Positions 6,927 through 62,588 are shown, counted from the stretch's first letter. The stretch is 64,000 nt of DNA from an uncultured virus (IMG/VR IMGVR_UViG_3300042520_003480) (IMGVR_UViG_3300042520_003480), one strand, 5' to 3'. The notes: a model not told the origin generated them from the letters alone. Numbers and translations are program-made.

Positions 6927-9900
6927 ATGATAATACAACAAGGCATAATAGCTAGTTCGATCCAAACACTAAGCAAAATAATAATTGACTCATTAACGGA
7001 TTATGCTACCACTTCTTATAGTTTGTGTTCGTTCAGTGCTCCTGAAGGAGAAATTCCGATCTCATGGTTTAAATTTATTGATATAGACAACGATGTAATT
7101 ACAAACTCTTATTCTCTATGCTCGTTTAGCGTATCAGAAAATCAATTATTGAGTGCAAATTTGGGATATCACTTTCTGTCTGCTGAAGATACTATTACAA
7201 ACTCTTATTCTCTATGCTCGTTTAGCGTATCAGAAAATCAATTATCGAGTATAAATTTGGGATATCACTTTTTGTCTGCTGAAGATACTATTACAAATAC
7301 ACTTAATGTCTCTTCCTTTAGTGTTCCGACTTCCGGATTAACGCTAACATACCCCTTAACTGTAACAAATATTAATACATTTCGAACGTCCATTTATGGG
7401 GTTTCTTCTGATGCAGTAGCTGTTCTCGGAAATCCCCGTTTTAGTTTTACGTATTGGGAGGTTTCGAATGGCGGTTCATGGTCAATTGTTCCGACATATC
7501 AAACAGTTAGCGGCTATGCTTTCTTGTCTGGAGGACAATCTTGGTATGATGCTTCAGTAGGGGCTTTGAGTGCTAGACTTATAGTAGGGTATCAAGGAAG
7601 ATCATATAGAACAAATCCTGTTGCTCTTAAACCTTATTCCAGCGTGTTAGACATTCCTAACCTTCAATTATGGTTAGATGCTTCTGACTCTACTACACTT
7701 TCTGGTGGAAATGCAACAACAGGAGCTTTTCGAGATAGCAGTTCTAATATTTTTACTATTACAAAAAATGGAAACGTTGGACAAGGAAATTTTAGTCCAT
7801 TTTTTACAACTGGTTCAACTTACAGTCCAACTATACATGGAGGAAGTGGGTATTTTGATAGAAGCAGTTATCTGTCGACCCCATCAAATGCCGCTTTTAA
7901 TTTTGGAACAGGAAATTTTACCGTTGAATGTTGGATCAATTCAAATGATGTGTCATCATCAACACAAGTAGGATTTCTTCAGACATCAGATGTTGCTGGT
8001 GGATTAAAACAGGACTACAATTCAGGAATTGCTATTGTTCAAGGTATAGGGGCTGGTGTTGGAATGACTGGTGGGTTGGCTGTCAATATTGCTGGAACTT
8101 TTGTAGGCTCAAACACTCCAATATTAACAACTGGCACTTGGTATCATATCGCAGTTGTTAGAAATAGCGGTGTTGTAAGAATATATGTAAACGGGAAAGT
8201 TCATGCTTCTGGAACAGCAAATGGAAATTGTTTCGGAACAAACCTGTGTGTAGGTGGTTATTATAATACAAGTTATCTTTATAATGGATATATCTCCAAT
8301 CTCCGCGTTGTCAAAGGAACGCCTCTCTATACTTCAAACTTTACTCCTCCTACAGCTCCTTTAACAAACATTTCAAATACTTCTCTTCTTCTCAACTTTA
8401 CAAATGGGGTAGCTTTAGATGGCACTATTAATAACAGTTTAGCTTTATATGGTGGAGCAGCAATTGTTAATGCTGCAAAAAAATACGGAACAGGTTCTTT
8501 TCTCTTTAACGGAAATGGAGAGTACATAGTAGCTCCTTCTCGACCAAATTATAGACTTGGTTTCGATAATTTCACAATAGAATGTTGGGTAAAATTTAAT
8601 AACACCACAACGGACAGCGATGGTATTGCGGATAGTGGAAGCACATTAACTTCTGCAAATGCCAATCAATGGTTTATATATAGAAATAATAATATACTAC
8701 GTTTTGGTAGACACGCAGTTGCTGATTTATTAACTTACGACACATCGACGTTAGTTCCAAACACTTGGTATCACCTTGCTGTGACTAGAGACTCTGACTA
8801 TTTGAGTATGTTTATCAATGGAACGAGAGTATCGTCAACATATTATGCAGGATGGGACATTGATGACTCAAACGTAAGAATTGGAGTAGTCGCGACTCCA
8901 TTTTATATGAAAGGAGGCATTGATGATTTCAGACTCACTAGAAGAGTTTCAAGATACGGTCCATCCACAGTGTTGCTTTTAAATGGCAATGGCTCAGATA
9001 ATGCTAACAATAACACTTTTTTAGATAGTAGTTCCAATAACTTTACTATCACAAGAAACGGATCCGTTACTCAAGGATCGTTTAGTCCATTCCCATTAAA
9101 TGGAGCAACTTATAATCCTTCTTTACATGGAGGAAGTGGGTATTTTAATGGAGTAGCTGGAAACTATCTTTCAGTTCCTGCTAATGCGGGCTTTAATTTT
9201 TCTTCTGGAACGTTTACGGTAGAAGCGCAGGTAAACTTTAATTCTCTTCCTGTCCAAGCCACGGTCTTCGGAAATTATAATAGCATTAATACCGGTTGGA
9301 CATTAAATTTAAGCAATGGAAAAATAGTAGTTAATTTTTCTGGAGATGGACCAAATATTACAGGAACCACATCAATTCAAACGGGAGTTTGGTACCATAT
9401 TGCTGTATCTGGTTCTCCTGGCTCTTACAAATTATTCGTAAACGGAATACAGGAAGGATCAACTTATGCAGGAGCGACTTCATTGGTTGGAGGAAATTTA
9501 GGAGTAGGAGCACTAGGAGACAGATCTGGATATATTGGAGCGAATCCAATGAGCGGTTATATTTCTAGTCTTCGCATTATCAACGGAACTGCTCTTTATA
9601 CCTCTAACTTTACTCCTTCTACAGCTCCATTAACAAATATTACAGATACTTCTCTTCTTCTTAACTTCACAAACGGAGGAGTTATTGATAGTACTGGCAA
9701 AAACGACGTAATCACAGTAGGAAACGCAAAGATTAGTACATCTATTAAGAAGTATGGGACAGGTTCTATGTATTTTGATGGAAGTGGAGACTATCTACGA
9801 ATTCCTGCAAGCTCTGATTTGACTCTAGGAATTGCTGATTTTACAATTGAATTCTGGTGCAATTTTACTTCCACTAATGATTCAGGATCTGTTAACAGAA

Positions 9901-11681
9901 GAATACTTAGTCACGGAACCAACACACTAGATAGAATGCAAATATTCATTAACGATGCCGCTGGATATGGCAGTCCAATAGGAGGAATAGTGTTGTATAC
10001 GACTTCAGCTATAGGCACGACGATTGTTGCTGTAAATGATGGAAATTGGCATCATATTGCGTTTACAAGACAAGGAGGAACTTTGTATACTTTTGTTGAC
10101 GGAGCTTTAATGTATTCACGAGCAAACACGACGAACTTTAATGATTCTTCTGCTCCTTATTATTTTGGAGCTTATGCTAGCACGACAAGTGGCTTCTACA
10201 ACGGTTTCTTAGATGATTTTAGAATTACAAAAGGAGCTGCTCTCTATACATCAAACTTTACTCCTCCAACTTCAGAATTAGGTTTAACGGACTTGACTAC
10301 TGTATCTGCTTCTCCGTTTACTCCTCCTTTAGAACACCCAACATCCAGTTCTGGAGATTCTGACTTTAATAACGTTTCATTGCTATTACAAGCCAACGAG
10401 CCTGGGACTGAACAGCTTAATTGGAAAGATAAATCTCCAAATGGCAATTTTGCATTTCAAACTAATTCACTTCTTAGTCCTTCAGTATCAAGTCTTGGTA
10501 TTGGTTTGCTTTCTGCTGTAGTGTTTGACGGTACAAATGATTTCTTGAACTTGTCAACCCCGATACCTCTTACTGCGAGCAATGCTTCTAGCTTTTTTGT
10601 GTATAATAGACAAGGCAGTTCTGATATTAATATATCTTTAGGTAATAAAGTATCTCAAAACATATCCACTGGATTGCAATGGAGCGATAACAGAGTTTAT
10701 GCTTTAGAAGGATACTCGAATGCTAAAAGCAATATTGGTCCGACATTGATGGCGGTTACCAAAAATCCCAACGTTCTTTATATGGGCAACGAACGGTTGT
10801 TTACGTTTGGTTGTTCGTTGTTAACTTTGCAAAATTCAACTGTAATTGATAACAGCGGAAACGGACGGACTTTATATTCGGATGGCAACACTCTTCCTAC
10901 TTCTTCCGCTGTAACAATTGCTGGAAATGCAACTCGTGCCTGGACCTTTAATGGAATAAATTTAGTTTACATGGACCCCTCCAACGACTTTGTTTGGGGA
11001 ACTGGGCCATATACTATTGAGGCATGGGTCAAACCCACTAGTTATAACTGCCAAAGTGCCCCACCGCTGATATTCGGTCTGGTCGTCCCAGGAATGCACT
11101 GGGCAGGAGAGATAAATTTCTTAACTTTAAATAATTTTTCAGGCCAAGTTCAGTTTTATGCAACTAAAACCGGAGCTCCTGACCCAAACACAGTCTCAAT
11201 TGTTGCTCCAGCGACAGCTCCGTTGAATGTTTGGACTCACGTTGCCGTAGTAAGAGAAGGAACGGGAGTTAATCAGCTTAAATTGTATGTAAATGGAGTG
11301 CTTTCTGTAAGTGGAACCGACGTTAATGACTACACTGACGCTACTGCGGCTCCCTCAATTGCAAGACAATCCGTTACAGTTGCGAATGGATTTTGTGGTA
11401 GTATTTCTAACGTTCGTGTAGTTAAAGGAAAAGCAATGTATACTAATAACTTTACACCTGTTGCTCCGCTAGTAACCGTACCAAGAACATCTCCGCTTTC
11501 TAAACAAACAGATTATGGTACTGGATGGGGAACATCAAATGCGGTAGTTGATGGAGTAGGTGTTTATGAAAGTGCGAGACATAAAGGAGCGATGGGAGAA
11601 ATAATTTATGCTAATTGCACTTTGCCTGAAGCTGAATTACAGTTGGTTGGAAATAGCTTAGTCACAAAGTGGGGAATATAA
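6927..11681 (+). CDS. Large multi-LamG (concanavalin A-like) receptor-binding/structural protein
   Basis: Five FT(V/I)ExW-like ... WxH(I/L/V)A ... GxIxxxR(V/I) modules and repeated YTSNFTP motifs. Confidence 0.85.
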   Translation: MIIQQGIIASSIQTLSKIIIDSLTDYATTSYSLCSFSAPEGEIPISWFKFIDIDNDVITNSYSLCSFSVSENQLLSANLGYHFLSAEDTITNSYSLCSFSVSENQLSSINLGYHFLSAEDTITNTLNVSSFSVPTSGLTLTYPLTVTNINTFRTSIYGVSSDAVAVLGNPRFSFTYWEVSNGGSWSIVPTYQTVSGYAFLSGGQSWYDASVGALSARLIVGYQGRSYRTNPVALKPYSSVLDIPNLQLWLDASDSTTLSGGNATTGAFRDSSSNIFTITKNGNVGQGNFSPFFTTGSTYSPTIHGGSGYFDRSSYLSTPSNAAFNFGTGNFTVECWINSNDVSSSTQVGFLQTSDVAGGLKQDYNSGIAIVQGIGAGVGMTGGLAVNIAGTFVGSNTPILTTGTWYHIAVVRNSGVVRIYVNGKVHASGTANGNCFGTNLCVGGYYNTSYLYNGYISNLRVVKGTPLYTSNFTPPTAPLTNISNTSLLLNFTNGVALDGTINNSLALYGGAAIVNAAKKYGTGSFLFNGNGEYIVAPSRPNYRLGFDNFTIECWVKFNNTTTDSDGIADSGSTLTSANANQWFIYRNNNILRFGRHAVADLLTYDTSTLVPNTWYHLAVTRDSDYLSMFINGTRVSSTYYAGWDIDDSNVRIGVVATPFYMKGGIDDFRLTRRVSRYGPSTVLLLNGNGSDNANNNTFLDSSSNNFTITRNGSVTQGSFSPFPLNGATYNPSLHGGSGYFNGVAGNYLSVPANAGFNFSSGTFTVEAQVNFNSLPVQATVFGNYNSINTGWTLNLSNGKIVVNFSGDGPNITGTTSIQTGVWYHIAVSGSPGSYKLFVNGIQEGSTYAGATSLVGGNLGVGALGDRSGYIGANPMSGYISSLRIINGTALYTSNFTPSTAPLTNITDTSLLLNFTNGGVIDSTGKNDVITVGNAKISTSIKKYGTGSMYFDGSGDYLRIPASSDLTLGIADFTIEFWCNFTSTNDSGSVNRRILSHGTNTLDRMQIFINDAAGYGSPIGGIVLYTTSAIGTTIVAVNDGNWHHIAFTRQGGTLYTFVDGALMYSRANTTNFNDSSAPYYFGAYASTTSGFYNGFLDDFRITKGAALYTSNFTPPTSELGLTDLTTVSASPFTPPLEHPTSSSGDSDFNNVSLLLQANEPGTEQLNWKDKSPNGNFAFQTNSLLSPSVSSLGIGLLSAVVFDGTNDFLNLSTPIPLTASNASSFFVYNRQGSSDINISLGNKVSQNISTGLQWSDNRVYALEGYSNAKSNIGPTLMAVTKNPNVLYMGNERLFTFGCSLLTLQNSTVIDNSGNGRTLYSDGNTLPTSSAVTIAGNATRAWTFNGINLVYMDPSNDFVWGTGPYTIEAWVKPTSYNCQSAPPLIFGLVVPGMHWAGEINFLTLNNFSGQVQFYATKTGAPDPNTVSIVAPATAPLNVWTHVAVVREGTGVNQLKLYVNGVLSVSGTDVNDYTDATAAPSIARQSVTVANGFCGSISNVRVVKGKAMYTNNFTPVAPLVTVPRTSPLSKQTDYGTGWGTSNAVVDGVGVYESARHKGAMGEIIYANCTLPEAELQLVGNSLVTKWGI
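7098..7298 (+). repeat. 96-bp near-identical coding tandem duplication
   Basis: ITNSYSLCSFSVSENQLxSxNLGYHFLSAEDT occurs twice, starting at 7098 and 7194. Confidence 0.9.
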
Positions 11682-26937: not shown

Positions 26938-27216
26938 ATGATATTTAAAGACACAGAACTTTTAACGAATCTTTACGAAGGAATTACTAACAATAAGTTG
27001 CAAGACAAAAAAGGAAAAAAAGAGTTAGAAGAGGCTAAAAAGGGCAAAAAACCTGAATTTTTGTATTCTAACAAAAATAAAGATGAAGATGAACCTATGA
27101 GCAAAACTCTTAAAAAGAAAGCAATGAAAGAAGGGTTACTTACGTTTAAAGATCGCTTTGAAGCTGTAATGACAGAAAATGATTCAAGAAGAAAGTCTAT
27201 CAATAGAACCAAGTAA
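26938..27216 (+). CDS. Small charged late protein, possible internal head protein
   Basis: GATAAATA 5 nt upstream; LYE, LEEA and VMTE protease-like sites. Confidence 0.55.
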   Translation: MIFKDTELLTNLYEGITNNKLQDKKGKKELEEAKKGKKPEFLYSNKNKDEDEPMSKTLKKKAMKEGLLTFKDRFEAVMTENDSRRKSINRTK

Positions 27217-27540
27217 AAACATCGCTTCTCTGTTTGAAATTTCACATCGTTGAGCAATAGCTTTCGCTTTAAGGTCTATTTCAATGTCGGTGTCTTTAAT
27301 TTTTTTGATGTAATTTATTCTTGGAGAGTATTTCATTTTAGGAAAAAAAGAAATCATTGTTTTGTAGTGCAATTCTTTGTTTTCTAGTAAAATTTTAGAG
27401 TTTACTTGATTAATAGATAAACATAACGTTGGATTAATAAAACTTAACCAACGATTAACTAAAAAAGGAACATATTCATCTAGTGGTAAATCTCCCTTTT
27501 TGGTTACAATTATGTCTTTTAGGTAATCAAAGATTGTCAC
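27184..27540 (-). CDS. gp62: Clamp loader small subunit
   Basis: IFDYLKDI...YVPFLVNRWLSF...YIKK...CEISNREA matches the gp62 pattern. Confidence 0.8.
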   Translation of the reverse strand: MTIFDYLKDIIVTKKGDLPLDEYVPFLVNRWLSFINPTLCLSINQVNSKILLENKELHYKTMISFFPKMKYSPRINYIKKIKDTDIEIDLKAKAIAQRCEISNREAMFLLGSIDRLSS

Positions 27541-28054
27541 GTCTGGTTTCTATAAAAATGCTCTTTGTTAGATAGTGAAACGAATCAACTGCGTTTTGTT
27601 GGAACTCTTCTAGCTGTTTTTTATCAAAAGACAAACAATTAATTTTGTCAATAGACAGTTCGATTGCAAATATGATGTGAAATACAATTGAATCCTTAAT
27701 GGGATTGAGTATTGATAAGGAAACTTGTTTTCCGTCAACAAATATGCTGTTTTCGTCTACAAAACATTGTTTGTTTGTTGTTACAGAAATAAAAGAACCG
27801 AGTTGATTCAAAAATAACCTTTGAAAACAAGCTCCGCCAAACATATTTACACCAGGAAGCTCTACAGCAAGTACGAGTGATTTCTCAATAACAAGCGGTC
27901 CGATAACTGTTGGAGAAATAAAGGATAAGATATCTCCGTGAGGAGAAACATCTTCTCCAAATAATTTAAATGCAAATCTTTGCTGAACTAATCTACAATC
28001 ATACAGACCATCGTCGTTGAGAAACTGTCGAATTTGGTTGTCGTTTAAGATCAT
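27527..28054 (-). CDS. Divergent DUF366-like protein
   Basis: YD...RFAF...GDILSF...VELP...FQRLF...GKQVSLSI...FHI aligns by eye to DUF366, with several acidic motifs missing. Confidence 0.55.
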   Translation of the reverse strand: MILNDNQIRQFLNDDGLYDCRLVQQRFAFKLFGEDVSPHGDILSFISPTVIGPLVIEKSLVLAVELPGVNMFGGACFQRLFLNQLGSFISVTTNKQCFVDENSIFVDGKQVSLSILNPIKDSIVFHIIFAIELSIDKINCLSFDKKQLEEFQQNAVDSFHYLTKSIFIETRRDNL

Positions 28055-28722
28055 TTGCAGTAAGTTTCTTTGAATTTAATGTTCGCTTCATCCCACTGGT
28101 TTGTCAACATTGAGTCCCCTAACCCATAATGAATAACACGGATTGGAAGAACTCCGCATGTGACTGATTTTTGATTAGCTCGCAAACAAAACGCTATATC
28201 ATAAAAATGAAAATTAAAGTTTTCATCAAATGAAAGATCCTTTTCTTTTAAATTTTTTATCTTGCAAGCTATAAACAACCCATCAATAGTCAAAGATCTG
28301 CTTTTTGTTGGACCAAAAATTGTTGTCCAAACCTTTCCTTCGTTAATGTGAGAGACTTCCCCCACATAGTCCTCTCTTGGTGCACAAAGATGCCAAGCAA
28401 GTTTTTCTGCTTGTGTATTGAACGATTTGGCTCCTGCAAGACCTGTTATAGAATATGGACTTTGGGTTAATTTTTCGTAAAGAAAAATATCTTCAAGCAC
28501 TACATCATCGTGAACGAACAACGCGACCTTGTCGTTGTTCTTTGGGTCATTTAAAATTTCGTTATAACACTGAGACAACCCTTTTTTATTATCTTTAAAC
28601 ACATGTAAATCTACGTTGGAGTTAGATTCATATTGTTTTTTTAGACTCTGAAAAATAGGTCTTTGTTCGAACTCTTTATCAGTTTTAGCTTCTGTACAGG
28701 TAACAATTAGTAGTTTGCTCAT
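28051..28722 (-). CDS. GT-A fold (family 2-like) glycosyltransferase
   Basis: GLSQCYN, LFVHDDV, IDGLFIA and FDENFNFHFYDIAFC. Confidence 0.85.
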   Translation of the reverse strand: MSKLLIVTCTEAKTDKEFEQRPIFQSLKKQYESNSNVDLHVFKDNKKGLSQCYNEILNDPKNNDKVALFVHDDVVLEDIFLYEKLTQSPYSITGLAGAKSFNTQAEKLAWHLCAPREDYVGEVSHINEGKVWTTIFGPTKSRSLTIDGLFIACKIKNLKEKDLSFDENFNFHFYDIAFCLRANQKSVTCGVLPIRVIHYGLGDSMLTNQWDEANIKFKETYCK

Positions 28723-29510
28723 ACGTCTTTATATTTTTGTTTAAGGTATTCAATATTTTTTTTAGCCAACATCTGCTGCTCGTTTGTGAGAGTTGCATCA
28801 AAGTATGCATTAGTTGTTGGAATTCTCGTTACATTTTGTGTAGTAAAGTCAATTCCATTAATTGCAGCAAGAATTGTATAACAACTGTCGGAACTACGAA
28901 TGTTTGGAATTTTATTTTGTAAATAATAATCAAACTCTGTGTGTTCTCCCATTCCGAGAAGATGAAGAGGCTTTAACAGCAAATTACGCTTTAGTAACTC
29001 TTCAACGCACTGATTTCTAGATACAGCAATGTGAGTATCTCCAGTCGCATCGTTCCAACATTTGGGAACAGCAATTTTGCTAAGACCAAGACACTTGACA
29101 AACGGACTAACAAGCATGTTATAAAAGCATTCAAACCAAGTCTCTTTATTGCTACCTTGAGGACAAGCAAAAATCCAGGTTGAACTAAGTAAATTCGAGG
29201 CTTTCATTTTTGACACAAAACTTCTAAAGTTTTGCAATGTTTGTTGAGAGTCAAAAAGCACATCTGGAGCAATGACTTCGGATGGTTTAAGTTCCTTGAC
29301 TGCTTCAATCAAAGCATCTTCTGTCACTAAGCTTTCTTCAGCTGCACCGTTATCCAATGTTATAAAGGCTTTTGGATTTGCTTTTCTAATATTAAGAAAG
29401 TGGCTTCTGTAAATTGAGTTATTAAGATAGTGATGAGCTAAAGCGAAATATCTATCGCCATTTTCCATCATATCTAGATGGTTATTTGGTGGGATTGTAT
29501 AGAATTTCAT
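28719..29510 (-). CDS. TGT-like TIM-barrel, putative DpdA-family guanine transglycosylase
   Basis: TGT-type motifs in order: LDNG, APDV, PQG, HLLG and SSDS; located next to a DpdL-like gene. Confidence 0.7.
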   Translation of the reverse strand: MKFYTIPPNNHLDMMENGDRYFALAHHYLNNSIYRSHFLNIRKANPKAFITLDNGAAEESLVTEDALIEAVKELKPSEVIAPDVLFDSQQTLQNFRSFVSKMKASNLLSSTWIFACPQGSNKETWFECFYNMLVSPFVKCLGLSKIAVPKCWNDATGDTHIAVSRNQCVEELLKRNLLLKPLHLLGMGEHTEFDYYLQNKIPNIRSSDSCYTILAAINGIDFTTQNVTRIPTTNAYFDATLTNEQQMLAKKNIEYLKQKYKDV

Positions 29511-29932
29511 TTATTCTTAAAAATATATTGTTTTACATCGAGTATTCCAAGATCAATGTCCCCTTGTTCAGCTTCTTTAAATGAAATTGCGTCCCCTTGT
29601 CGGGCTCTTTCCTTGTATCTTAACTTTCTTTCCTTTTTAGGGCATTCGATCCACAAAAGAGTTGCTTCTGGAAAGTGCTTTATAATTTCTTTTTGTCTAA
29701 CACCTGATACAATGTATTGCTTCACGTCGCTTAAAGGCATCTTGCGTATCAAATTTTCAACAATTTGTTCATGAAGATGCTTTGAATCTTGAAGTTGCTT
29801 TCTGTCACTTGTCTGTTTAATTTCTCTAACAATATCTCCAATTTCAATAAAAATTCCATCAACCAACGCAGCAAGAGCCTTCGAGTAATGGGTTTTACCG
29901 GAACAAAGCTGTCCACAAACAAACGTTATCAT
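29507..29932 (-). CDS. P-loop nucleoside/nucleotide kinase-like protein
   Basis: N-terminal GQLCSGKT, GDIVRE, VSGVR and an ERxxR lid. Confidence 0.8.
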   Translation of the reverse strand: MITFVCGQLCSGKTHYSKALAALVDGIFIEIGDIVREIKQTSDRKQLQDSKHLHEQIVENLIRKMPLSDVKQYIVSGVRQKEIIKHFPEATLLWIECPKKERKLRYKERARQGDAISFKEAEQGDIDLGILDVKQYIFKNK

Positions 29933-30273
29933 CTGTATACTTTAGCTCCGTTTTCGTTATCTTCAAGAACTTCTACTGAAGAACAGTTGAATTTTTCAAG
30001 CAAATGCTGAGAGAGCATTTCACACGACATTGCTCCAAGATCTCCAGGTCTTCCAAAAGCAACTTCAAGATATTTAACAATATCTTGTTTGAAAAGAATA
30101 ATTTCAACATCTCTATCAGAATGTGTTACTTCTTTCTCAAGGGTGATGTGAAAAATATGCCTATGCTTGTCTTTTAGCATATGAATCCAAGGTTGATTAG
30201 GAAGCATTTCAGCCACACCAGGCCAATTATGAAGAGCTTCGTATTGTAGCTTTACAATAATATTTGTTATCAT
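29929..30273 (-). CDS. dpdL: QueD-paralog T-fold protein (DpdL-like); likely start MITNII at 30273
   Basis: ALHNW, LKDKHRHIF (LxxxHRHxF in place of QueD CxxxHGH), SCEM and EDNENGA. Confidence 0.7.
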   Translation of the reverse strand: MITNIIVKLQYEALHNWPGVAEMLPNQPWIHMLKDKHRHIFHITLEKEVTHSDRDVEIILFKQDIVKYLEVAFGRPGDLGAMSCEMLSQHLLEKFNCSSVEVLEDNENGAKVYR

Positions 30274-30280
30274 CAAGGTC

Positions 30281-30308
30281 AGTATAAAGGAAAAAAGGCC
30301 CAATGCAA
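30281..30308 (-). promoter_or_regulatory. Sigma70-like promoter of the modification operon
   Basis: TTGCAT-N16-TATACT, 7 nt before the ATG at 30273. Confidence 0.6.
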
Positions 30309-30326
30309 CAGCAAAGGGCCTTTTTT
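30291..30326. terminator. Intrinsic terminator overlapping the promoter
   Basis: AAAAAAGGCCC...GGGCCTTTTTT inverted repeat. Confidence 0.7.
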
Positions 30327-30339
30327 ATTTTGTTTATTT

Positions 30340-30561
30340 TTAGGCTTCGACGACGGCTGCAAATTGCCCAAGATTGTTACGCACATTGTGGTAACGAGGA
30401 CGAAGAATTGCTTGGTTAGTACGATCCAAAAAGCCTACAAACTCGTACTTTGACGGATTCAGATGACGAGCGATCATCTTTTGTTTGCGGTTTTGAGTGA
30501 GACTGGAATCGAGGTTAGTCTTTCCAGTGATTTGTTCGATTTGTTTGATTACTGTGTTCAT
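30340..30561 (-). CDS. Small hypothetical early-type protein
   Basis: 73 aa, with its own TTGACT promoter and a downstream terminator; C-terminal RNxxGQFA. Confidence 0.65.
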   Translation of the reverse strand: MNTVIKQIEQITGKTNLDSSLTQNRKQKMIARHLNPSKYEFVGFLDRTNQAILRPRYHNVRNNLGQFAAVVEA

Positions 30562-40402: not shown

Positions 40403-41872
40403 TTATTTCATAAACGGTCCCGATTCTCCCTGTATAGCCTTCCAAGCAGCAACAAAAATACTGCCTACTGATTGGAAAAGAGCTATTCCTGCCTCTAGAG
40501 CACCTGTTGATTGTTTGTGCAACGGAGCTGAAGCGGAAACTCCTCCTTGCTTTCCTCTAACTTCTCCTGCTGAGTCTGCTGAGTAATCGAGGTCGGGAAC
40601 TCTGACTTCATGGGTATGCATAGCATCAGGTAATGCGTGAACGTGAGGAAAATTGTTTAATAATACAGGAGAAGTGACTATTCCTACTATAGGTCCAACA
40701 GTTGTACCCGTGGGAGAAGCAAGACATGGAACGAGACCTACCATTGAAACAATCGTGCCTGGTAGAATGTATCCGGTTGTAGTTAATTCGTACGGACGCA
40801 TTAGATAAGTCATATTTAAAATCTTATCTCTAATTCCTTCAATAAACCGCAAACTTAACATTTGCTGAGCTTCAACTGGATTGGTAGCTTTGCTTAACAC
40901 AAAGCCAATTGTATCTTTGAGTGCTGCTGGAATACCCTCTGCTCCTAATCCTCCCCAAAAAGCAGGTCCTCCATACATGTCGCTATTAGAAGAGGGTTTT
41001 GTCATTTCGTTACGACCACTACATTCCGCTTTTACAAAAGAAAGACTTTCCGCGTGCATATGACCTCCTACCATTAGGTTGCCTGTATTGCTAATTGTTC
41101 CTTTTACAAAAAAGTGTCCATCCGTAGGAGACACTTCGATGCTTCGACCGGAAATATCAACAACATCTCCTTGTAGAGATAATCTTCCCGTTTGAGTTCC
41201 GAGTAAAATTTCAGGAGCAGTAAACCTAGTAATCCCTCCGCTTATTGTCAAGGGACCTCCTGTTGTAATGTCGATTCCTTGAGCTCCAGCGAGAACGGTG
41301 AATTTATTAGAGCATTTGATCATGTAGTGACCGCCAGGAGAGGCAAGAGAGTTTATTCCTTGTACGTGATTACATTTTCCTCCTTCTGGAAATTGAGGAC
41401 CTGCTTTTTTGGTGTTTACCTTACCTGGGTCAATTAACCCTTTGTTTCTAACACTTTTCTCTTTATCAACACGATAAGAAGGAGCGTTATTCATTCCTAA
41501 CCCTACTTCTAGCAGATCGCACCCTTGTATAATAGTATATCTGTTTCCGCAAGGAGGAGCTAGTTTGCTTTCAAGTTCTAATAATTCTTTTGATTTACTT
41601 TGAGCTATAGATTTAACTTGCTCAATTTTAGCAGTATCATCTGAAGGATCTTTTAAAGTTCCTTTTCCGTCACAAGCTGAGCACTTTCCTTTTAACGCCG
41701 AACTTTTTGAGACAGGCATTTTTTCTTTTAAATAACTCAGCAAAGCTGTAGGTATTCTTATATTAAAGGATCTTTGCAAAAAACCTGTAATTGATGCAAA
41801 AACTCTACCTCCAGTTTTGGAGAGCATTGAACCTGTACAAAACGGACATTTTATTTCTCTTTGATTTGCCAT
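40403..41872 (-). CDS. Putative central-spike C-terminal part with an N-terminal Zn-finger
   Basis: CPFC...CSAC, beta-helix-like repeats and HVH...HTH near the C-terminus; directly follows gp5. Confidence 0.55.
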   Translation of the reverse strand: MANQREIKCPFCTGSMLSKTGGRVFASITGFLQRSFNIRIPTALLSYLKEKMPVSKSSALKGKCSACDGKGTLKDPSDDTAKIEQVKSIAQSKSKELLELESKLAPPCGNRYTIIQGCDLLEVGLGMNNAPSYRVDKEKSVRNKGLIDPGKVNTKKAGPQFPEGGKCNHVQGINSLASPGGHYMIKCSNKFTVLAGAQGIDITTGGPLTISGGITRFTAPEILLGTQTGRLSLQGDVVDISGRSIEVSPTDGHFFVKGTISNTGNLMVGGHMHAESLSFVKAECSGRNEMTKPSSNSDMYGGPAFWGGLGAEGIPAALKDTIGFVLSKATNPVEAQQMLSLRFIEGIRDKILNMTYLMRPYELTTTGYILPGTIVSMVGLVPCLASPTGTTVGPIVGIVTSPVLLNNFPHVHALPDAMHTHEVRVPDLDYSADSAGEVRGKQGGVSASAPLHKQSTGALEAGIALFQSVGSIFVAAWKAIQGESGPFMK

Positions 41873-53428: not shown

Positions 53429-53863
53429 TTAGTACTTATACATTTGATATTGACCCAAATCGTCCGTAAATATTACACTTTTGAACTCAAAGTAATCAAG
53501 CAAGCTTTTGCAACTCATACAAGGAGAAGCTAAAGCAATTTGTTTATTTCTGTCGTAACGTAAACTAACAATGGTACATTTTTTTGTATCAATGTTTGTC
53601 AGGTTTTTTAACTTCACTATAGCATTAAACTCGCTGCAAGTGTGTTTTTGTTCAGAAAAATCTTCTCCTGTCTTAATTGACCGCTTTCTGTTTTTTAAAT
53701 TTGTAGGATGGGTCTTTTTTTGGTTTACCCCTATAGCTACTATCTTTTTTTTGTTTAATATGAACGAAAAATGTCTGCATCGAATTGGATCAGACCAATC
53801 GATTAAGGATTTTGCAATGTCTTCTAGACGTTTAAATTGCAATTTGTTCGCACTCAACGTCAT
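53429..53863 (-). CDS. Cytidine/dCMP deaminase-fold protein (variant)
   Basis: HFSFI...AIGVN...HTCSEFNAI...SPCMSC. Confidence 0.75.
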   Translation of the reverse strand: MTLSANKLQFKRLEDIAKSLIDWSDPIRCRHFSFILNKKKIVAIGVNQKKTHPTNLKNRKRSIKTGEDFSEQKHTCSEFNAIVKLKNLTNIDTKKCTIVSLRYDRNKQIALASPCMSCKSLLDYFEFKSVIFTDDLGQYQMYKY

Positions 53864-54260
53864 AAAATTTAAAGATATCTAATGCTTTGGTATCTCTTTG
53901 ATAAATGTCTTTATAAACGACCTTTTTAATTCCATATGCTGATATCATTAAGGCACAACATGAGCACGGCAATAAGGTGCAAGCAAGCAGCTTGCATTCT
54001 CCCTTCTTAAACAAAGAAAGGAGATTAACTTCTGCGTGTATCATGAACGGTCTTCTTTCATCTCTGTCTTTCCAAAACTCTTTGGGCACTACCTTGCCGC
54101 TAGCCAAGCCGTTATAAGCCACTCCAATCACTTTGTTGGAAAAATCTAAAGCACAAGCTCCTACTTTAGCATATACATCTTCACTGCGAAGAGACCCCAC
54201 TTCTGCTATTTTTAGAGCATATTTTTCCCAAGAAAGGCGTCCGTGAATGTTATTCTTCAA
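53832..54260 (-). CDS. cd: dCMP deaminase (probable TTG start near 54260)
   Basis: RSED...KVGAC...YNG...IHAEVN...LLPCSCC. Confidence 0.9.
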   Translation of the reverse strand: MKNNIHGRLSWEKYALKIAEVGSLRSEDVYAKVGACALDFSNKVIGVAYNGLASGKVVPKEFWKDRDERRPFMIHAEVNLLSLFKKGECKLLACTLLPCSCCALMISAYGIKKVVYKDIYQRDTKALDIFKFYDVECEQIAI

Positions 54261-54462
54261 TGACTCCAATTCTTTCTCCTTTGTCAAGACGGTAACCACA
54301 CCCAAGCAAAAAATCCTCAAATGCTTGAATTACTTCAGCAAGATTACATTCTCCATCAATTTTGTGGGTAATTTCTGTAATAGGAAAAGAAAAAGTTTCT
54401 GAATTATAGCCCTCGTGTGTGTATTTGAATATAATGTTGGAATCCGACTTTTGGTAATTCAT
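54250..54462 (-). CDS. Small hypothetical protein
   Basis: IQAFEDFLLGCGY; promoter TTGAAA-N16-TAAAAT 6 nt upstream. Confidence 0.65.
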   Translation of the reverse strand: MNYQKSDSNIIFKYTHEGYNSETFSFPITEITHKIDGECNLAEVIQAFEDFLLGCGYRLDKGERIGVIEE

Positions 54463-61898: not shown

Positions 61899-62588
61899 CT
61901 ATGAACCGAATCTACTTTGATCGATCAAATTAAAGAATTCTTGTCTTGTTCCAATTTCATTTGTGTGAAAATATCCTGACATTTGACTGGTTTTCATGAT
62001 ACTATCGTGTTTAATGCCTCTGCACTTTACACAGTTGTGTTGGCTTTCGATTACTACAGCTACGCCTCTGCTGCCAACACACAATCTTTCAATATGATCG
62101 TGAATTTGCTTGGTCAGGCTTTCTTGAATATTAGGCCTGCGTGAATAGTAATCAACGATGCGATTAAGCTTACTTAGGCCGATGACCAAATCAGTAGTTT
62201 TCTTGCCAGGAATATAAGCAGCATGACACATGCCATGAAAGGTCAAGTTGTGATGAGCGCACATACTGACTACCGGAATGCGCGTCTGACAAATTAGCCC
62301 CGTATATCCTTCATCATTAGGGAATGCTGTAACTTCCGGCTCTGGACTATTTGAACCAGAGATTAGGTCATTTACCCACGCCTTAGCTACTCTGCGAGGC
62401 GTATTTGCTGAATGGGGATCCGCTGCCCAATCAAATCCCAAAGAGGTTAAGAACTTTCCGTAGTACTCAGCAGCTTGCTCAATCATTTGAGCCTTTTCTT
62501 CTGCTGTTCGTGCAATACTGCCGTTAGCTTTTTTAAGTAGTTCCATATTTATAGAGATTAATTTTAATACAATTTTACAGATCAGCAA
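61899..62588 (-). CDS. folE: GTP cyclohydrolase I (probable start MELLKK at 62546)
   Basis: TPRRVAK, SMCAHH, GLSKLNR, RRPNIQE and HNCVKCRG. Confidence 0.96.
   Translation of the reverse strand: MLICKIVLKLISINMELLKKANGSIARTAEEKAQMIEQAAEYYGKFLTSLGFDWAADPHSANTPRRVAKAWVNDLISGSNSPEPEVTAFPNDEGYTGLICQTRIPVVSMCAHHNLTFHGMCHAAYIPGKKTTDLVIGLSKLNRIVDYYSRRPNIQESLTKQIHDHIERLCVGSRGVAVVIESQHNCVKCRGIKHDSIMKTSQMSGYFHTNEIGTRQEFFNLIDQSRFGS

What the first reader, a model, noticed from the sequence alone, without database searches (positions are those of the whole stretch)
27184..30308. 7-deazaguanine DNA-modification operon with extra enzymes (kinase, glycosyltransferase, DUF366-like)
Seen: one promoter precedes overlapping genes for a T-fold protein with LxxxHRHxF, a P-loop kinase, a TGT-like barrel (DNG/PD/QG/HLLG/SDS), a GT-A glycosyltransferase, a DUF366-like protein and gp62; folE lies next to gp32/gp45. 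Established (from memory): FolE-QueD-QueE make CDG, DpdA-family enzymes place 7-deazaguanines in phage DNA, and a QueD paralog with LxxxHRHxF (DpdL) is linked to unsubstituted 7-deazaguanine. Inference: a kinase wedged between dpdL and the barrel suggests base exchange at the nucleotide level followed by phosphorylation, i.e. pre-replicative G substitution. The coupled glycosyltransferase and DUF366-like gene may add an undescribed further modification. queD, queE and queC are not in this window.
Basis: partly seen in the sequence, partly recalled or inferred. Interest (0 to 1): 0.8.

Follow-up and report, generated by a model that had tools for sequence, protein, structure and literature searches.

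The report
Phage 7-deazaguanine DNA operon with kinase
An uncultured freshwater T4-like phage carries the known three-gene set thought to replace guanine in its DNA by 7-deazaguanine, and the small kinase inside that set hints that the new base is built as a free nucleotide, while the sugar-transferase and DUF366 genes next to it are old neighbours.

Summary
The six overlapping minus-strand genes are real. Three of them (DpdL-like, a 141-aa P-loop kinase, a TGT-fold DpdA3) match, in the same order, CGPG_00067/66/65 of Cellulophaga phage phiST, whose DNA has all G replaced by 2'-deoxy-7-deazaguanine (NAR 2023, PMC10516641). FolE is in the window. QueD and QueE, but no QueC, are in a complete 217-kb relative.

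The kinase, which that paper dismissed as not conserved, follows DpdL in 9 of 11 loci from other phage lineages and in all 6 database phage records that hold this DpdA3 type. A dNTP-hydrolase-like gene is usually beside it. This supports, without proving, base exchange on nucleotides before replication. The published model is exchange on finished DNA.

The glycosyltransferase and DUF366 protein are not extra decorating enzymes specific to this cassette. GT-DUF366-gp62 is a resident block in 80 related phage loci that lack the cassette at that place. In those loci QueC and a glutamine amidotransferase sit upstream instead (46 of 51 loci with enough sequence).

The annotated TTG start of dpdL lies in a strong terminator hairpin, so ATG 30273 is more likely. 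A single promoter was not shown. Earlier notes of this scan described the same operon on other DNA.

The parts
29929..30273 (-). dpdL-like gene (QueD paralogue, proposed CDG decarboxylase). The ORF as listed starts at TTG 30303; ATG 30273 is the likelier start.
   Evidence: 36% identity, E 2e-26, to phiST CGPG_00067 = DpdL. LxxxHRHxF motif read. phrog_17812 E 1.1e-22. No Pfam PTPS hit at E<=0.1.
29507..29932 (-). 141-aa P-loop kinase (AAA_18, NMP-kinase-like), homologue of phiST CGPG_00066
   Evidence: Pfam AAA_18 E 1.6e-9, over the cut-off. 28% identity, E 2e-14, to CGPG_00066. tblastn finds it in the same 6 phage records as DpdA3, directly upstream of it. Walker A GQLCSGKT.
28719..29510 (-). 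DpdA3-type TGT-fold protein (7-deazaguanine transglycosylase family)
   Evidence: 39% identity over 99% of its length to phiST CGPG_00065. Model pLDDT 85.9. The top 35 listed Foldseek hits are TGT. VIA-align wide search: ArcTGT Z 16.2, QTRT2 15.2, DpdA 7ui4 14.9, TGT 14.7, Cap10 13.5, then generic TIM barrels at Z<=13.1.
28051..28722 (-). GT-A glycosyltransferase (Glyco_tranf_2_5); resident neighbour
   Evidence: Pfam E 4.5e-9, over the cut-off. Invariant HDD in 8 relatives. A homologue sits upstream of DUF366 in 64 of 80 related loci that lack the cassette there.
27527..28054 (-). Trimmed DUF366-family protein (biotin/lipoate-ligase-like fold); resident neighbour
   Evidence: Model pLDDT 84.2. 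Best PDB hit 2ddz (the Pyrococcus horikoshii protein of unknown function that I recall as PH0223, the solved DUF366 member; the title names neither): E 2.6e-8, TM 0.65, followed by biotin and lipoate protein ligases. The profile reaches PF04017-labelled proteins at E 3e-29 to 2e-17. It lacks two segments of canonical members.
27184..27540 (-). gp62-like clamp-loader small subunit
   Evidence: phrog_225 E 9e-8. It follows DUF366 in 73 of 80 related loci.
30292..30326 (-). Terminator-like hairpin with flanking A-run and T-run, between the 73-aa gene and dpdL
   Evidence: RNA fold -21.8 kcal/mol, z -5.25; sequence.
30340..30561 (-). 73-aa gene of unknown function upstream of dpdL, conserved in relatives
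   Evidence: 57-79% identity in 7 relatives among the 10 loci (the eighth hit, 100%, is L002, the window's own DNA). No Pfam or PHROG family.
61899..62588 (-). folE (GTP cyclohydrolase I), first step of the 7-deazaguanine pathway
   Evidence: PF01227 E 5.9e-44; phrog_2197 E 1e-55.

Best explanation
The region holds a phiST-type module for making phage DNA in which guanine is replaced by 2'-deoxy-7-deazaguanine (dDG). It sits in front of an older glycosyltransferase-DUF366-gp62 block of this T4-like lineage. Proposed pathway: FolE (in the window) with QueD and QueE (elsewhere in the genome, as in the complete relative) make 7-carboxy-7-deazaguanine (CDG) from GTP. DpdL removes the carboxyl group. 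DpdA3 swaps the deazapurine for guanine. I judge it somewhat more likely than not that this swap is made on a deoxyguanine nucleotide, not on finished DNA, and that the coupled kinase rephosphorylates the product so that the phage polymerase builds it in. Because the kinase is tied most tightly to DpdL, the order may be: DpdA3 loads CDG onto dGMP, DpdL decarboxylates the nucleotide, and the kinase follows. Shown here: gene identities, fold, synteny and co-occurrence. Inferred: every catalytic step, the substrate level and the product in DNA. The glycosyltransferase and DUF366 protein are not cassette-specific decorating enzymes. My odds: dDG-type genome about 0.75. Given that, nucleotide-level route about 0.5, DNA-level route about 0.35, other about 0.15.
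For: The order DpdL-kinase-DpdA3 is the same as in phiST, and phiST DNA has 302,000 dDG per 10^6 nt with the dG peak gone (PMC10516641, passages read). The operon is conserved in 10 of 10 IMG/VR relatives. The complete relative G002 (217 kb, terminal repeats) has QueD, QueE and FolE but no QueC (0 of 4 records), which is the gene set of dDG phages. Kinase linkage: tblastn of the kinase and of DpdA3 hits the same 6 of 50,697 phage records, with the two genes adjacent. In 11 loci of other lineages (about 8 distinct phage types), the kinase lies directly downstream of DpdL in 9, and a MazG-like or dCTP-deaminase/dUTPase-like gene lies directly upstream of DpdL in 9. The 2 loci without the kinase carry a weak phosphoribosyltransferase-like gene (E 4.7e-4, below the cut-off). 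Flavobacterium phage immuto 2-6A (100% fdPreQ1) has an AAA_28 kinase, a PRA-PH pyrophosphatase and a phosphoribosyltransferase in its DpdA3 cluster. G002 has an AAA_28 kinase right after QueD-QueE. The published authors could not get dDG in E. coli from DpdL plus DpdA3 alone and note that other enzymes may be needed. They also report DpdA3 as the only subfamily giving complete replacement. DpdA3 is a bare 263-aa barrel: 229 of its residues align to the 413-residue DNA insertase DpdA. One TGT-fold relative in the list, Cap10, is solved in complex with a protein (title), so the fold is not tied to polynucleotide substrates. From established knowledge, recalled and not tested here: T4 builds hmC DNA through a dCTPase, a dCMP-level modification and a dNMP kinase, and 7-deaza-dGTP is accepted by DNA polymerases.
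Against: No enzyme activity, nucleotide pool or DNA composition was or could be measured here. [quoted passage not shown] Well-studied TGT and DpdA enzymes act on polynucleotides. The kinase's substrate is unknown: AAA_18 is a broad family, NCBIfam gave no name, and PDB sequence search gave only E>=0.16. No MazG-like gene was found in the window or by Pfam in G002; G002 has only a dUTPase/DCD-like gene far from the operon. The kinase is missing next to DpdL/DpdA3 in 2 of 11 outside loci. hhalign of the DpdA3 alignment against E. coli Tgt was not significant (probability 0.3%), so catalytic-residue equivalence rests on motif register and fold only. QueD and QueE were not seen in this phage's own genome, which is not held.
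Confidence: 0.5

Rival explanations
1. Published model. DpdL makes free 7-deazaguanine (or CDG is used), and DpdA3 exchanges it for guanine in already replicated phage DNA. The kinase and the dNTP hydrolases are ordinary phage nucleotide-supply genes that merely sit nearby.
For: This is the conclusion of PMC10516641 (abstract and discussion). The fold is closest to tRNA and DNA transglycosylases, including the DNA insertase DpdA at Z 14.9. The kinase is absent beside DpdL/DpdA3 in 2 of 11 outside loci. In 4 loci (L116, L119, L120, L135) it lies 1.5-2.7 kb from DpdA3.
Against: Complete replacement of G is hard to reach by post-replicative exchange, and the other DpdA subfamilies reach 0.1-30%. 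The kinase keeps its place directly after DpdL across sipho-like and T4-like lineages at only 28-29% identity. DpdL plus DpdA3 gave no dDG in E. coli.
Confidence: 0.3
2. First reader's idea. The translationally coupled glycosyltransferase and DUF366 protein further decorate the deazaguanine, giving a new hypermodified base.
For: 4-nt overlaps chain DpdA3, GT and DUF366. One relative (L011) has an NAD-dependent sugar epimerase directly upstream of dpdL.
Against: GT-DUF366-gp62 occurs in 64 (GT) and 73 (gp62) of 80 related loci with 0 of 80 carrying DpdL, kinase or DpdA3 there. DUF366-like is absent in 3 of 13 close relatives that keep the cassette and GT. It is the least conserved gene of the chain: 43-51% identity against 65-79% for GT and DpdA3. 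phiST and MA9V-3 have no homologue of GT or DUF366 near their cassette. dDG has no side chain to carry a sugar (reasoning).
Confidence: 0.06
3. GT and DUF366 belong to an older, QueC-based 7-deazaguanine gene chain (QueC, glutamine amidotransferase, two small genes, GT, DUF366). DUF366, with an ATP-using ligase-like fold, works on a carboxy- or amido-deazaguanine intermediate. In this lineage the QueC part was replaced by DpdL-kinase-DpdA3, and DUF366 is a decaying leftover.
For: QueC lies 0.7-2.9 kb upstream of DUF366 in 46 of 51 related loci with at least 3 kb of upstream sequence, and the amidotransferase in 42 of 51. All 5 records of such phages that were searched also hold a DpdA3-like gene elsewhere. 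The DUF366 fold matches biotin and lipoate ligases, which adenylate carboxylic acids (the chemistry is recalled). The window's copy is trimmed, fast-evolving and lost in 3 of 13 relatives.
Against: The 80 loci are related phages sharing synteny, so the counts are not independent events. 5 of 51 loci have no QueC upstream. The one database record with a DUF366 homologue (the MaAM05 record) shows it among bacterial-type genes with no QueC annotated nearby. The genome-contig scan found only 1 locus, so no test in cellular genomes was possible. No function is published for DUF366 (no paper in one search held DUF366 or PF04017; one 2005 interaction survey names PH0223).
Confidence: 0.25

Closest known systems
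dDG system of Cellulophaga phage phiST (FolE, QueD, QueE, MazG-like CGPG_00068, DpdL CGPG_00067, CGPG_00066, DpdA3 CGPG_00065; NAR 2023, PMC10516641)
   Same: Same three genes in the same order, at 36%, 28% and 39% identity. Same LxxxHRHxF motif. Same QueC-less precursor set in the complete relative.
   Different: The host virus is a T4-like myovirus of lakes, not a siphovirus of a marine Flavobacteriia host. There is no MazG-like gene beside the cassette. FolE, QueD and QueE are scattered (FolE about 32 kb away; QueD/E about 60 kb from DpdA3 in G002). The cassette is chained to GT-DUF366-gp62. The paper treated the kinase as not conserved; here it is.
[quoted passage not shown]
   Same: The DpdA3 is related (hhalign probability 97.5%, E 5e-12). 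A P-loop kinase and an NTP pyrophosphatase lie in the cluster.
   Different: Its kinase is of another family (AAA_28; no relation to the window's kinase by hhalign). It has DpdN and QueF instead of DpdL and makes another end product. The QueC-type relatives of the window's phage resemble this cluster: DpdA3-like followed by a formyltransferase, and by an AAA_28 kinase in one of them.
T4 hydroxymethylcytosine pathway (dCTPase gp56, dCMP hydroxymethylase gp42, dNMP kinase gp1) and the Z-genome pathway (MazZ, PurZ, DatZ). Analogues recalled from established knowledge.
   Same: The logic of complete replacement: hydrolyse the canonical dNTP, modify at the monophosphate level, rephosphorylate with a phage kinase, polymerise.
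   Different: No homology was tested or claimed. Here the modifying enzyme would be a base-exchanging TGT-fold protein, which has no precedent on free nucleotides.
Bacterial DpdA (DNA preQ0 insertase, PDB 7ui4) and tRNA-guanine transglycosylases
   Same: Same barrel fold (Z 14.7-16.2, 225-233 residues aligned). Asp-containing motifs are conserved in all relatives.
   Different: It is 263 aa against 373-577. I saw no CxCxxC zinc motif on reading the sequence (the motif is recalled). There is no Pfam TGT hit (PF01702 found 0 of 5 related records).

Membership tests
DpdA3 subfamily of TGT/DpdA | Full-length homology to the founding member, phiST CGPG_00065 | tested here: met
   39.3% identity, 99% coverage, E 2e-47 against the phage collection. 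phrog_20335 E 1.5e-57.
DpdA3 subfamily of TGT/DpdA | TGT-type TIM-barrel fold | tested here: met
   Foldseek top hits are all TGT until rank 36 (E 2e-5, TMq 0.55-0.62). In the independent VIA-align search the five best of 48,161 chains are ArcTGT, QTRT2, DpdA, TGT and Cap10 (Z 16.2-13.5), above generic barrels.
DpdA3 subfamily of TGT/DpdA | Catalytic aspartates equivalent to those of TGT | tested here: inconclusive
   D52, D82 and D207 are invariant in 9 relatives and conserved in phiST and MA9V-3. hhalign to E. coli Tgt puts CPQG, HxLGxGE and RSSDSC on the expected Tgt motifs but is not significant (probability 0.3%). Which Tgt residues are catalytic is recalled.
DpdA3 subfamily of TGT/DpdA | Co-occurrence with FolE, QueD and QueE in the same genome | tested here: inconclusive
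   FolE is in the window. QueD and QueE were seen only in relatives G002 and G003; the QueE-like gene was read beside QueD in G002 alone. The window's own genome is not held.
DpdA3 subfamily of TGT/DpdA | Inserts a 7-deazaguanine, with the modified base present in virion DNA | not testable with these tools
   Only assembled contigs of public runs were available; they cannot show base modification.
DpdL (QueD paralogue, proposed CDG decarboxylase) | LxxxHRHxF in place of QueD's CxxxHGH (motif as given in PMC10516641) | tested here: met
   ...ML-KDK-HRH-I-F... in the translation. The complete relative's true QueD instead reads C-KYV-HGY.
DpdL (QueD paralogue, proposed CDG decarboxylase) | Homology to phiST CGPG_00067 | tested here: met
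   36% identity over 108 residues, E 2e-26 for the pair.
DpdL (QueD paralogue, proposed CDG decarboxylase) | T-fold / PTPS family membership | tested here: inconclusive
   No Pfam PTPS hit at E<=0.1 for the window protein. A DpdL-like protein of another lineage (L122) hits PTPS at E 3.8e-5. No structure was predicted for it here.
DpdL (QueD paralogue, proposed CDG decarboxylase) | Genome lacks QueC | tested here: met
   PF06508 found in 0 of 4 related records, including the complete G002; the control genomes rang 14 of 14. None in the window.
P-loop nucleotide kinase (AAA_18) | Walker A motif and a family score over the cut-off | tested here: met
   GQLCSGKT. PF13238 38.7 bits against a cut-off of 29.4. 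The nearest Atlas clusters are viral AAA_18 proteins (score 0.99).
P-loop nucleotide kinase (AAA_18) | Phosphorylates a (deaza)guanine deoxynucleotide | not testable with these tools
   No named equivalog in NCBIfam. PDB sequence hits only at E>=0.16, to adenylate-kinase-6-like proteins.
GT-A glycosyltransferase (Glyco_tranf_2_5) | Family score over the cut-off and an acidic DxD-type motif | tested here: met
   36.8 bits against a cut-off of 27. H70-D71-D72 are invariant in 8 relatives. That DxD is typical of GT-A is recalled.
DUF366 (PF04017) | Pfam score over the cut-off | tested here: not met
   16.1 bits against a cut-off of 29.9, E 0.0083.
DUF366 (PF04017) | Profile-level homology and shared fold with the solved member | tested here: met
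   The profile of 6 relatives reaches 44 PF04017-labelled proteins at E 3e-29 to 2e-17 (P0077 and P0079-P0120; two nearer hits, P0030 and P0068, carry the label too). The ExP...FGGxCFQRLF core is shared. The model's best PDB match is 2ddz, E 2.6e-8, TM 0.65.
gp62 clamp-loader small subunit | Homology to the phage clamp-loader family | tested here: met
   phrog_225 E 9e-8. No Pfam hit.

The most novel reading that the evidence does not exclude
DpdA3 is not a DNA-modifying enzyme but a nucleotide-level base exchanger. It loads CDG or 7-deazaguanine onto a deoxyguanine nucleotide freed by a dGTP hydrolase. DpdL and the coupled kinase then finish and rephosphorylate it, so that G-free genomes are made before replication. 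[quoted passage not shown] It would also give a TGT-fold enzyme a free-nucleotide substrate and supply an enzymatic route to 7-deaza-dGTP.
Probability: 0.4. Interest if true: 0.75.

Novelty: new member of a known kind. Interest (0 to 1): 0.5.

Why it matters
The module itself is known, so this window adds a freshwater T4-like lineage to the phages predicted to have G-free, 7-deazaguanine DNA. Such DNA resists restriction enzymes. The useful new point is comparative. A small kinase that the only paper on the system set aside is a conserved partner of DpdL and DpdA3, together with dNTP-hydrolase-like genes. That makes the open question of how DpdA3 phages reach 100% replacement directly testable with a short list of enzymes. 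It may also explain why the published heterologous reconstitution failed. Finally, it links the uncharacterised DUF366 family, by position, to QueC-type deazaguanine genes in phages.

Tried and rejected
- Complex prediction of DpdA3 with the kinase gave no verdict (score 0.00, controls not run). This is no evidence either way.
- Searching for longer, fused forms of the kinase found none among 7,998 candidates. The tool calls this weak evidence.
- hhalign of the DUF366 profile against the N-terminal domain of the MA9V-3 DpdL fusion showed no relation. A weak tblastn hint (E 0.52) was therefore dropped.
- hhalign of the kinase profile against the immuto AAA_28 kinase showed no relation.
- PDB sequence-profile searches of DpdA3, DUF366-like and GT gave nothing meaningful: only chance-level rows at E 0.57 or more for DpdA3 and DUF366-like, and none for GT.
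- blastn of the operon against 50,697 phage records found no match.
- G001, the nearest held record, is a 22-kb fragment with no DpdA3 or QueD.
- The genome-contig scan for DUF366 returned 1 small MAG contig. The DUF366-QueC link in cellular genomes could therefore not be tested.
- The first DUF366 literature search matched DUF3669 instead. The whole-word search found no paper on DUF366 function.
- Literature searches for DpdA3, for kinase with dGMP, and for 'pre-replicative' found no paper placing DpdA3 at the nucleotide level. The library lacks most subscription journals.
- Laying contigs of two metatranscriptome runs put short pieces (151-292 nt) on GT, DpdA3, kinase, DpdL, DUF366-like, gp62 and the 73-aa gene. 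The tool warns that DNA can be present in such libraries, so transcription is not shown. The uncovered parts mean nothing.
- The supplements of PMC10516641 (Data S1, S7, S8) were not opened. They may list further DpdA3 or DpdL phages and the CGPG_00066 search.

Full report
WHAT IS THERE

The window is part of a T4-like myovirus. It holds a portal gene, a Gp23-type major capsid gene, tail sheath and tube genes, a large terminase gene, gp32, a gp45-like gene and PhoH. It is collinear, in inverted orientation, with 63-122 kb of a complete 217-kb IMG/VR phage genome with terminal repeats, G002.

Public runs from lake and freshwater metagenomes hold the operon. Besides three possible source samples, six runs from six studies hold 70-89% of its sampled words. 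Two of these were laid and match it at 99% or more over most pieces.

On the minus strand, six genes overlap by 4, 4, 4, 4 and 14 nt:
- a DpdL-like protein
- a 141-aa P-loop kinase
- a 263-aa TGT-like barrel
- a GT-A glycosyltransferase
- a DUF366-like protein
- a gp62-like clamp-loader subunit

folE lies between gp32 and the gp45-like gene. No queD, queE or queC is in the window.

Two corrections are needed. A strong hairpin with flanking A-run and T-run (-21.8 kcal/mol, z -5.25) sits between the upstream 73-aa gene and dpdL. It covers the TTG start at 30303, so ATG 30273 (114 aa) is the likelier start. A single promoter could not be shown: sigma-70-like sites are at chance level.

THE THREE-GENE CORE IS THE phiST MODULE

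tblastn of the barrel against 50,697 phage records finds only five Cellulophaga phage records (phiST, phi19:2, phi13:1) and Chryseobacterium phage MA9V-3, at 38-39% identity over the full length.

In phiST the matching gene is CGPG_00065. It is preceded by CGPG_00066 and CGPG_00067. The window's kinase matches CGPG_00066 (28% identity, E 2e-14). Its first gene matches CGPG_00067 (36% identity, E 2e-26).

PMC10516641 (passages and sections 16 and 17 read) names CGPG_00067 DpdL, a proposed CDG decarboxylase with motif LxxxHRHxF. It names CGPG_00065 the founder of DpdA3. It also shows that phiST DNA contains dDG in place of all dG.

My structure model of the barrel (pLDDT 85.9) matches tRNA-guanine transglycosylases first in Foldseek. 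In an independent all-against-all search its five best matches are ArcTGT, QTRT2, the DNA insertase DpdA, bacterial TGT and Cap10 (Z 16.2-13.5), ahead of generic TIM barrels (Z 13.1 or less). Sequence-level tests against TGT fail (no Pfam hit; hhalign to E. coli Tgt not significant). Membership therefore rests on fold and on homology to the founder.

The complete relative G002 encodes QueD, a QueE-like radical-SAM protein and FolE, but no QueC. That is the gene set of dDG phages. The window's own genome is not held. By collinearity, its QueD and QueE would lie about 25 kb beyond the right end of the window.

THE KINASE IS A CONSERVED PARTNER

The paper states that other 7-deazaguanine phages do not encode CGPG_00066 homologues. 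Here they do.

- The kinase hits the same six phage records as DpdA3 and lies directly upstream of it in each.
- It is present in all 10 IMG/VR relatives of the window's operon.
- A scan with a broader DpdA3 alignment returned 24 loci. Eleven of them belong to other lineages (about eight distinct phage types, since some are near-duplicates). In 9 of the 11 the kinase follows DpdL directly. In 9 of the 11 a MazG-like or dCTP-deaminase/dUTPase-like gene directly precedes DpdL.
- The two exceptions (L122 and L123) have instead a FolE2 gene and a weak phosphoribosyltransferase-like gene.

Flavobacterium phage immuto 2-6A has 100% fdPreQ1, and its DpdA3 is related to the window's (hhalign probability 97.5%). 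Its cluster holds an AAA_28 kinase, a PRA-PH pyrophosphatase and a phosphoribosyltransferase. G002 has an AAA_28 kinase right after QueD-QueE.

Further points bear on mechanism. Replacement is complete only in DpdA3 phages. DpdL plus DpdA3 failed to give dDG in E. coli. A modified nucleoside was reported in CP220-infected cells. (All three are from the paper's text.) The barrel is small and bare. Together these favour a route that works on nucleotides: hydrolyse dGTP, exchange the base on the monophosphate, finish with DpdL, rephosphorylate, polymerise. T4's hmC pathway follows the same logic (recalled knowledge).

Because the tightest pair is DpdL-kinase, DpdA3 may load CDG first and DpdL may act on the nucleotide. 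None of this is shown. The kinase's substrate is unknown, TGT enzymes are known on polynucleotides, the window and G002 lack a MazG-like gene at the cassette, and the literature states the opposite. My odds are about 0.5 for a nucleotide-level route, 0.35 for a DNA-level route and 0.15 for something else, given a dDG genome (about 0.75).

THE GLYCOSYLTRANSFERASE AND DUF366 PROTEIN

The DUF366 call is right but needed more than Pfam, where the score is 16 bits, below the cut-off. A profile of six relatives reaches PF04017-labelled proteins at E 3e-29 to 2e-17. The core motif ExP...FGGxCFQRLF is shared. The model (pLDDT 84.2) matches the solved DUF366 protein 2ddz best, followed by biotin and lipoate protein ligases. 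The window's copy lacks two segments of canonical members.

A scan with canonical DUF366 proteins gave 80 loci of related T4-like phages. In these the order GT-DUF366-gp62-GroES-like-p128 is kept (GT in 64 of 80, gp62 in 73 of 80). None has DpdL, the kinase or DpdA3 within the roughly 6 kb held on either side. The block is therefore resident, and the cassette was placed in front of it.

Among the 13 close relatives that reach past GT, 3 lack the DUF366-like gene (L005, L006, L125). It is the least conserved gene of the chain: 43-51% identity to the window against 65-79% for GT and DpdA3. phiST and MA9V-3 have neither gene at their cassette. Unsubstituted 7-deazaguanine has no side chain to glycosylate. 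A new sugar-bearing base is therefore unlikely (about 0.06).

There is one twist. In the relatives, the slot upstream of GT-DUF366 holds QueC and a glutamine amidotransferase. QueC is there in 46 of the 51 loci with at least 3 kb of upstream sequence, and the amidotransferase in 42 of 51. All five such phage records searched also carry a DpdA3-like gene elsewhere, next to a PurN-like formyltransferase. The same genomic place thus carries alternative 7-deazaguanine gene sets, and DUF366 may belong to the QueC-type set. These loci are kin sharing synteny, so this is a lead, not a count of independent events. I could not test cellular genomes.

COMPARISON AND NOVELTY

This is a new member of a known kind, the phiST-type DpdL/DpdA3 dDG module, in a freshwater T4-like lineage. 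Earlier notes of this scan described the same operon and the kinase idea on other DNA. I re-tested their main claims here. What is not in the literature I could search is the conserved kinase and dNTP-hydrolase partnership and its implication for a pre-replicative route.

Noticed in passing
window 30292-30326 (minus strand): Strong hairpin with an A-run before and a T-run after (-21.8 kcal/mol, z -5.25). It looks like a bidirectional intrinsic terminator between the 73-aa gene and dpdL, and it overlaps the listed TTG start of dpdL.
   Followed up: partly
L006:445-1086, L007:7335-7976, L009:8877-9518: In three relatives a 213-aa ThyX (PF02511, E 1.2e-47 for L009) is inserted between dpdL and the kinase. 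A nucleotide-metabolism gene thus sits inside the cassette.
   Followed up: partly
L011:8211-9188: One relative has a 325-aa NAD-dependent sugar epimerase/dehydratase (PF01370, E 3.8e-59) directly upstream of dpdL.
   Followed up: no
L012:2690-3361 (= G002 40411-41079); also L030:1216-1926: An AAA_28 P-loop kinase follows QueD-QueE in the complete relative. It belongs to the same Pfam family as the 'thymidylate kinase' in the DpdA3 cluster of Flavobacterium phage immuto 2-6A, so this lineage has a second kinase tied to the pathway.
   Followed up: partly
L044:3222-6579, L050:3218-6582 and 44 more loci: Related T4-like phages carry the chain QueC, glutamine amidotransferase, a 123-aa gene, an 87-aa gene, GT, DUF366, gp62. 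Their DpdA3-like gene sits elsewhere, right after the DNA polymerase gene in three of the five records read (L111-L113), and is followed by a PurN-like formyltransferase, directly in two records and after one small gene in three.
   Followed up: partly
L015:5647-6528 (Chryseobacterium phage MA9V-3, XQU63047.1): Here DpdL is the C-terminal part of a 293-aa protein. The N-terminal ~180 residues match no Pfam family and are not DUF366-like.
   Followed up: partly
window 53429-53863 and 53832-54320 (minus strand): Two adjacent, overlapping cytidine/dCMP-deaminase-family genes (PF00383, E 2e-6 and 4.6e-12).
   Followed up: no
L019:8024-12039 (G002 48-52 kb): A cluster of GT2, GT1-like and methyltransferase genes lies between the SbcD-like and Rad50-like recombination genes of the complete relative. 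G002 also has a GDP-mannose dehydratase-like gene, a cytidylyltransferase and a sulfotransferase. These phages carry many sugar genes unrelated to the cassette.
   Followed up: no
L137 (MW495066.1 110417-122950): The only database 'phage' record with a canonical DUF366 homologue (Microcystis phage MaAM05) shows it among bacterial-type genes (glyS, mtgA, fabI, engB). This part of the record looks like cellular DNA.
   Followed up: no
window 6927-11681 (plus strand): A 1584-aa repetitive structural protein matches several baseplate-wedge and virion-protein PHROGs, each with up to five matched stretches.
   Followed up: no
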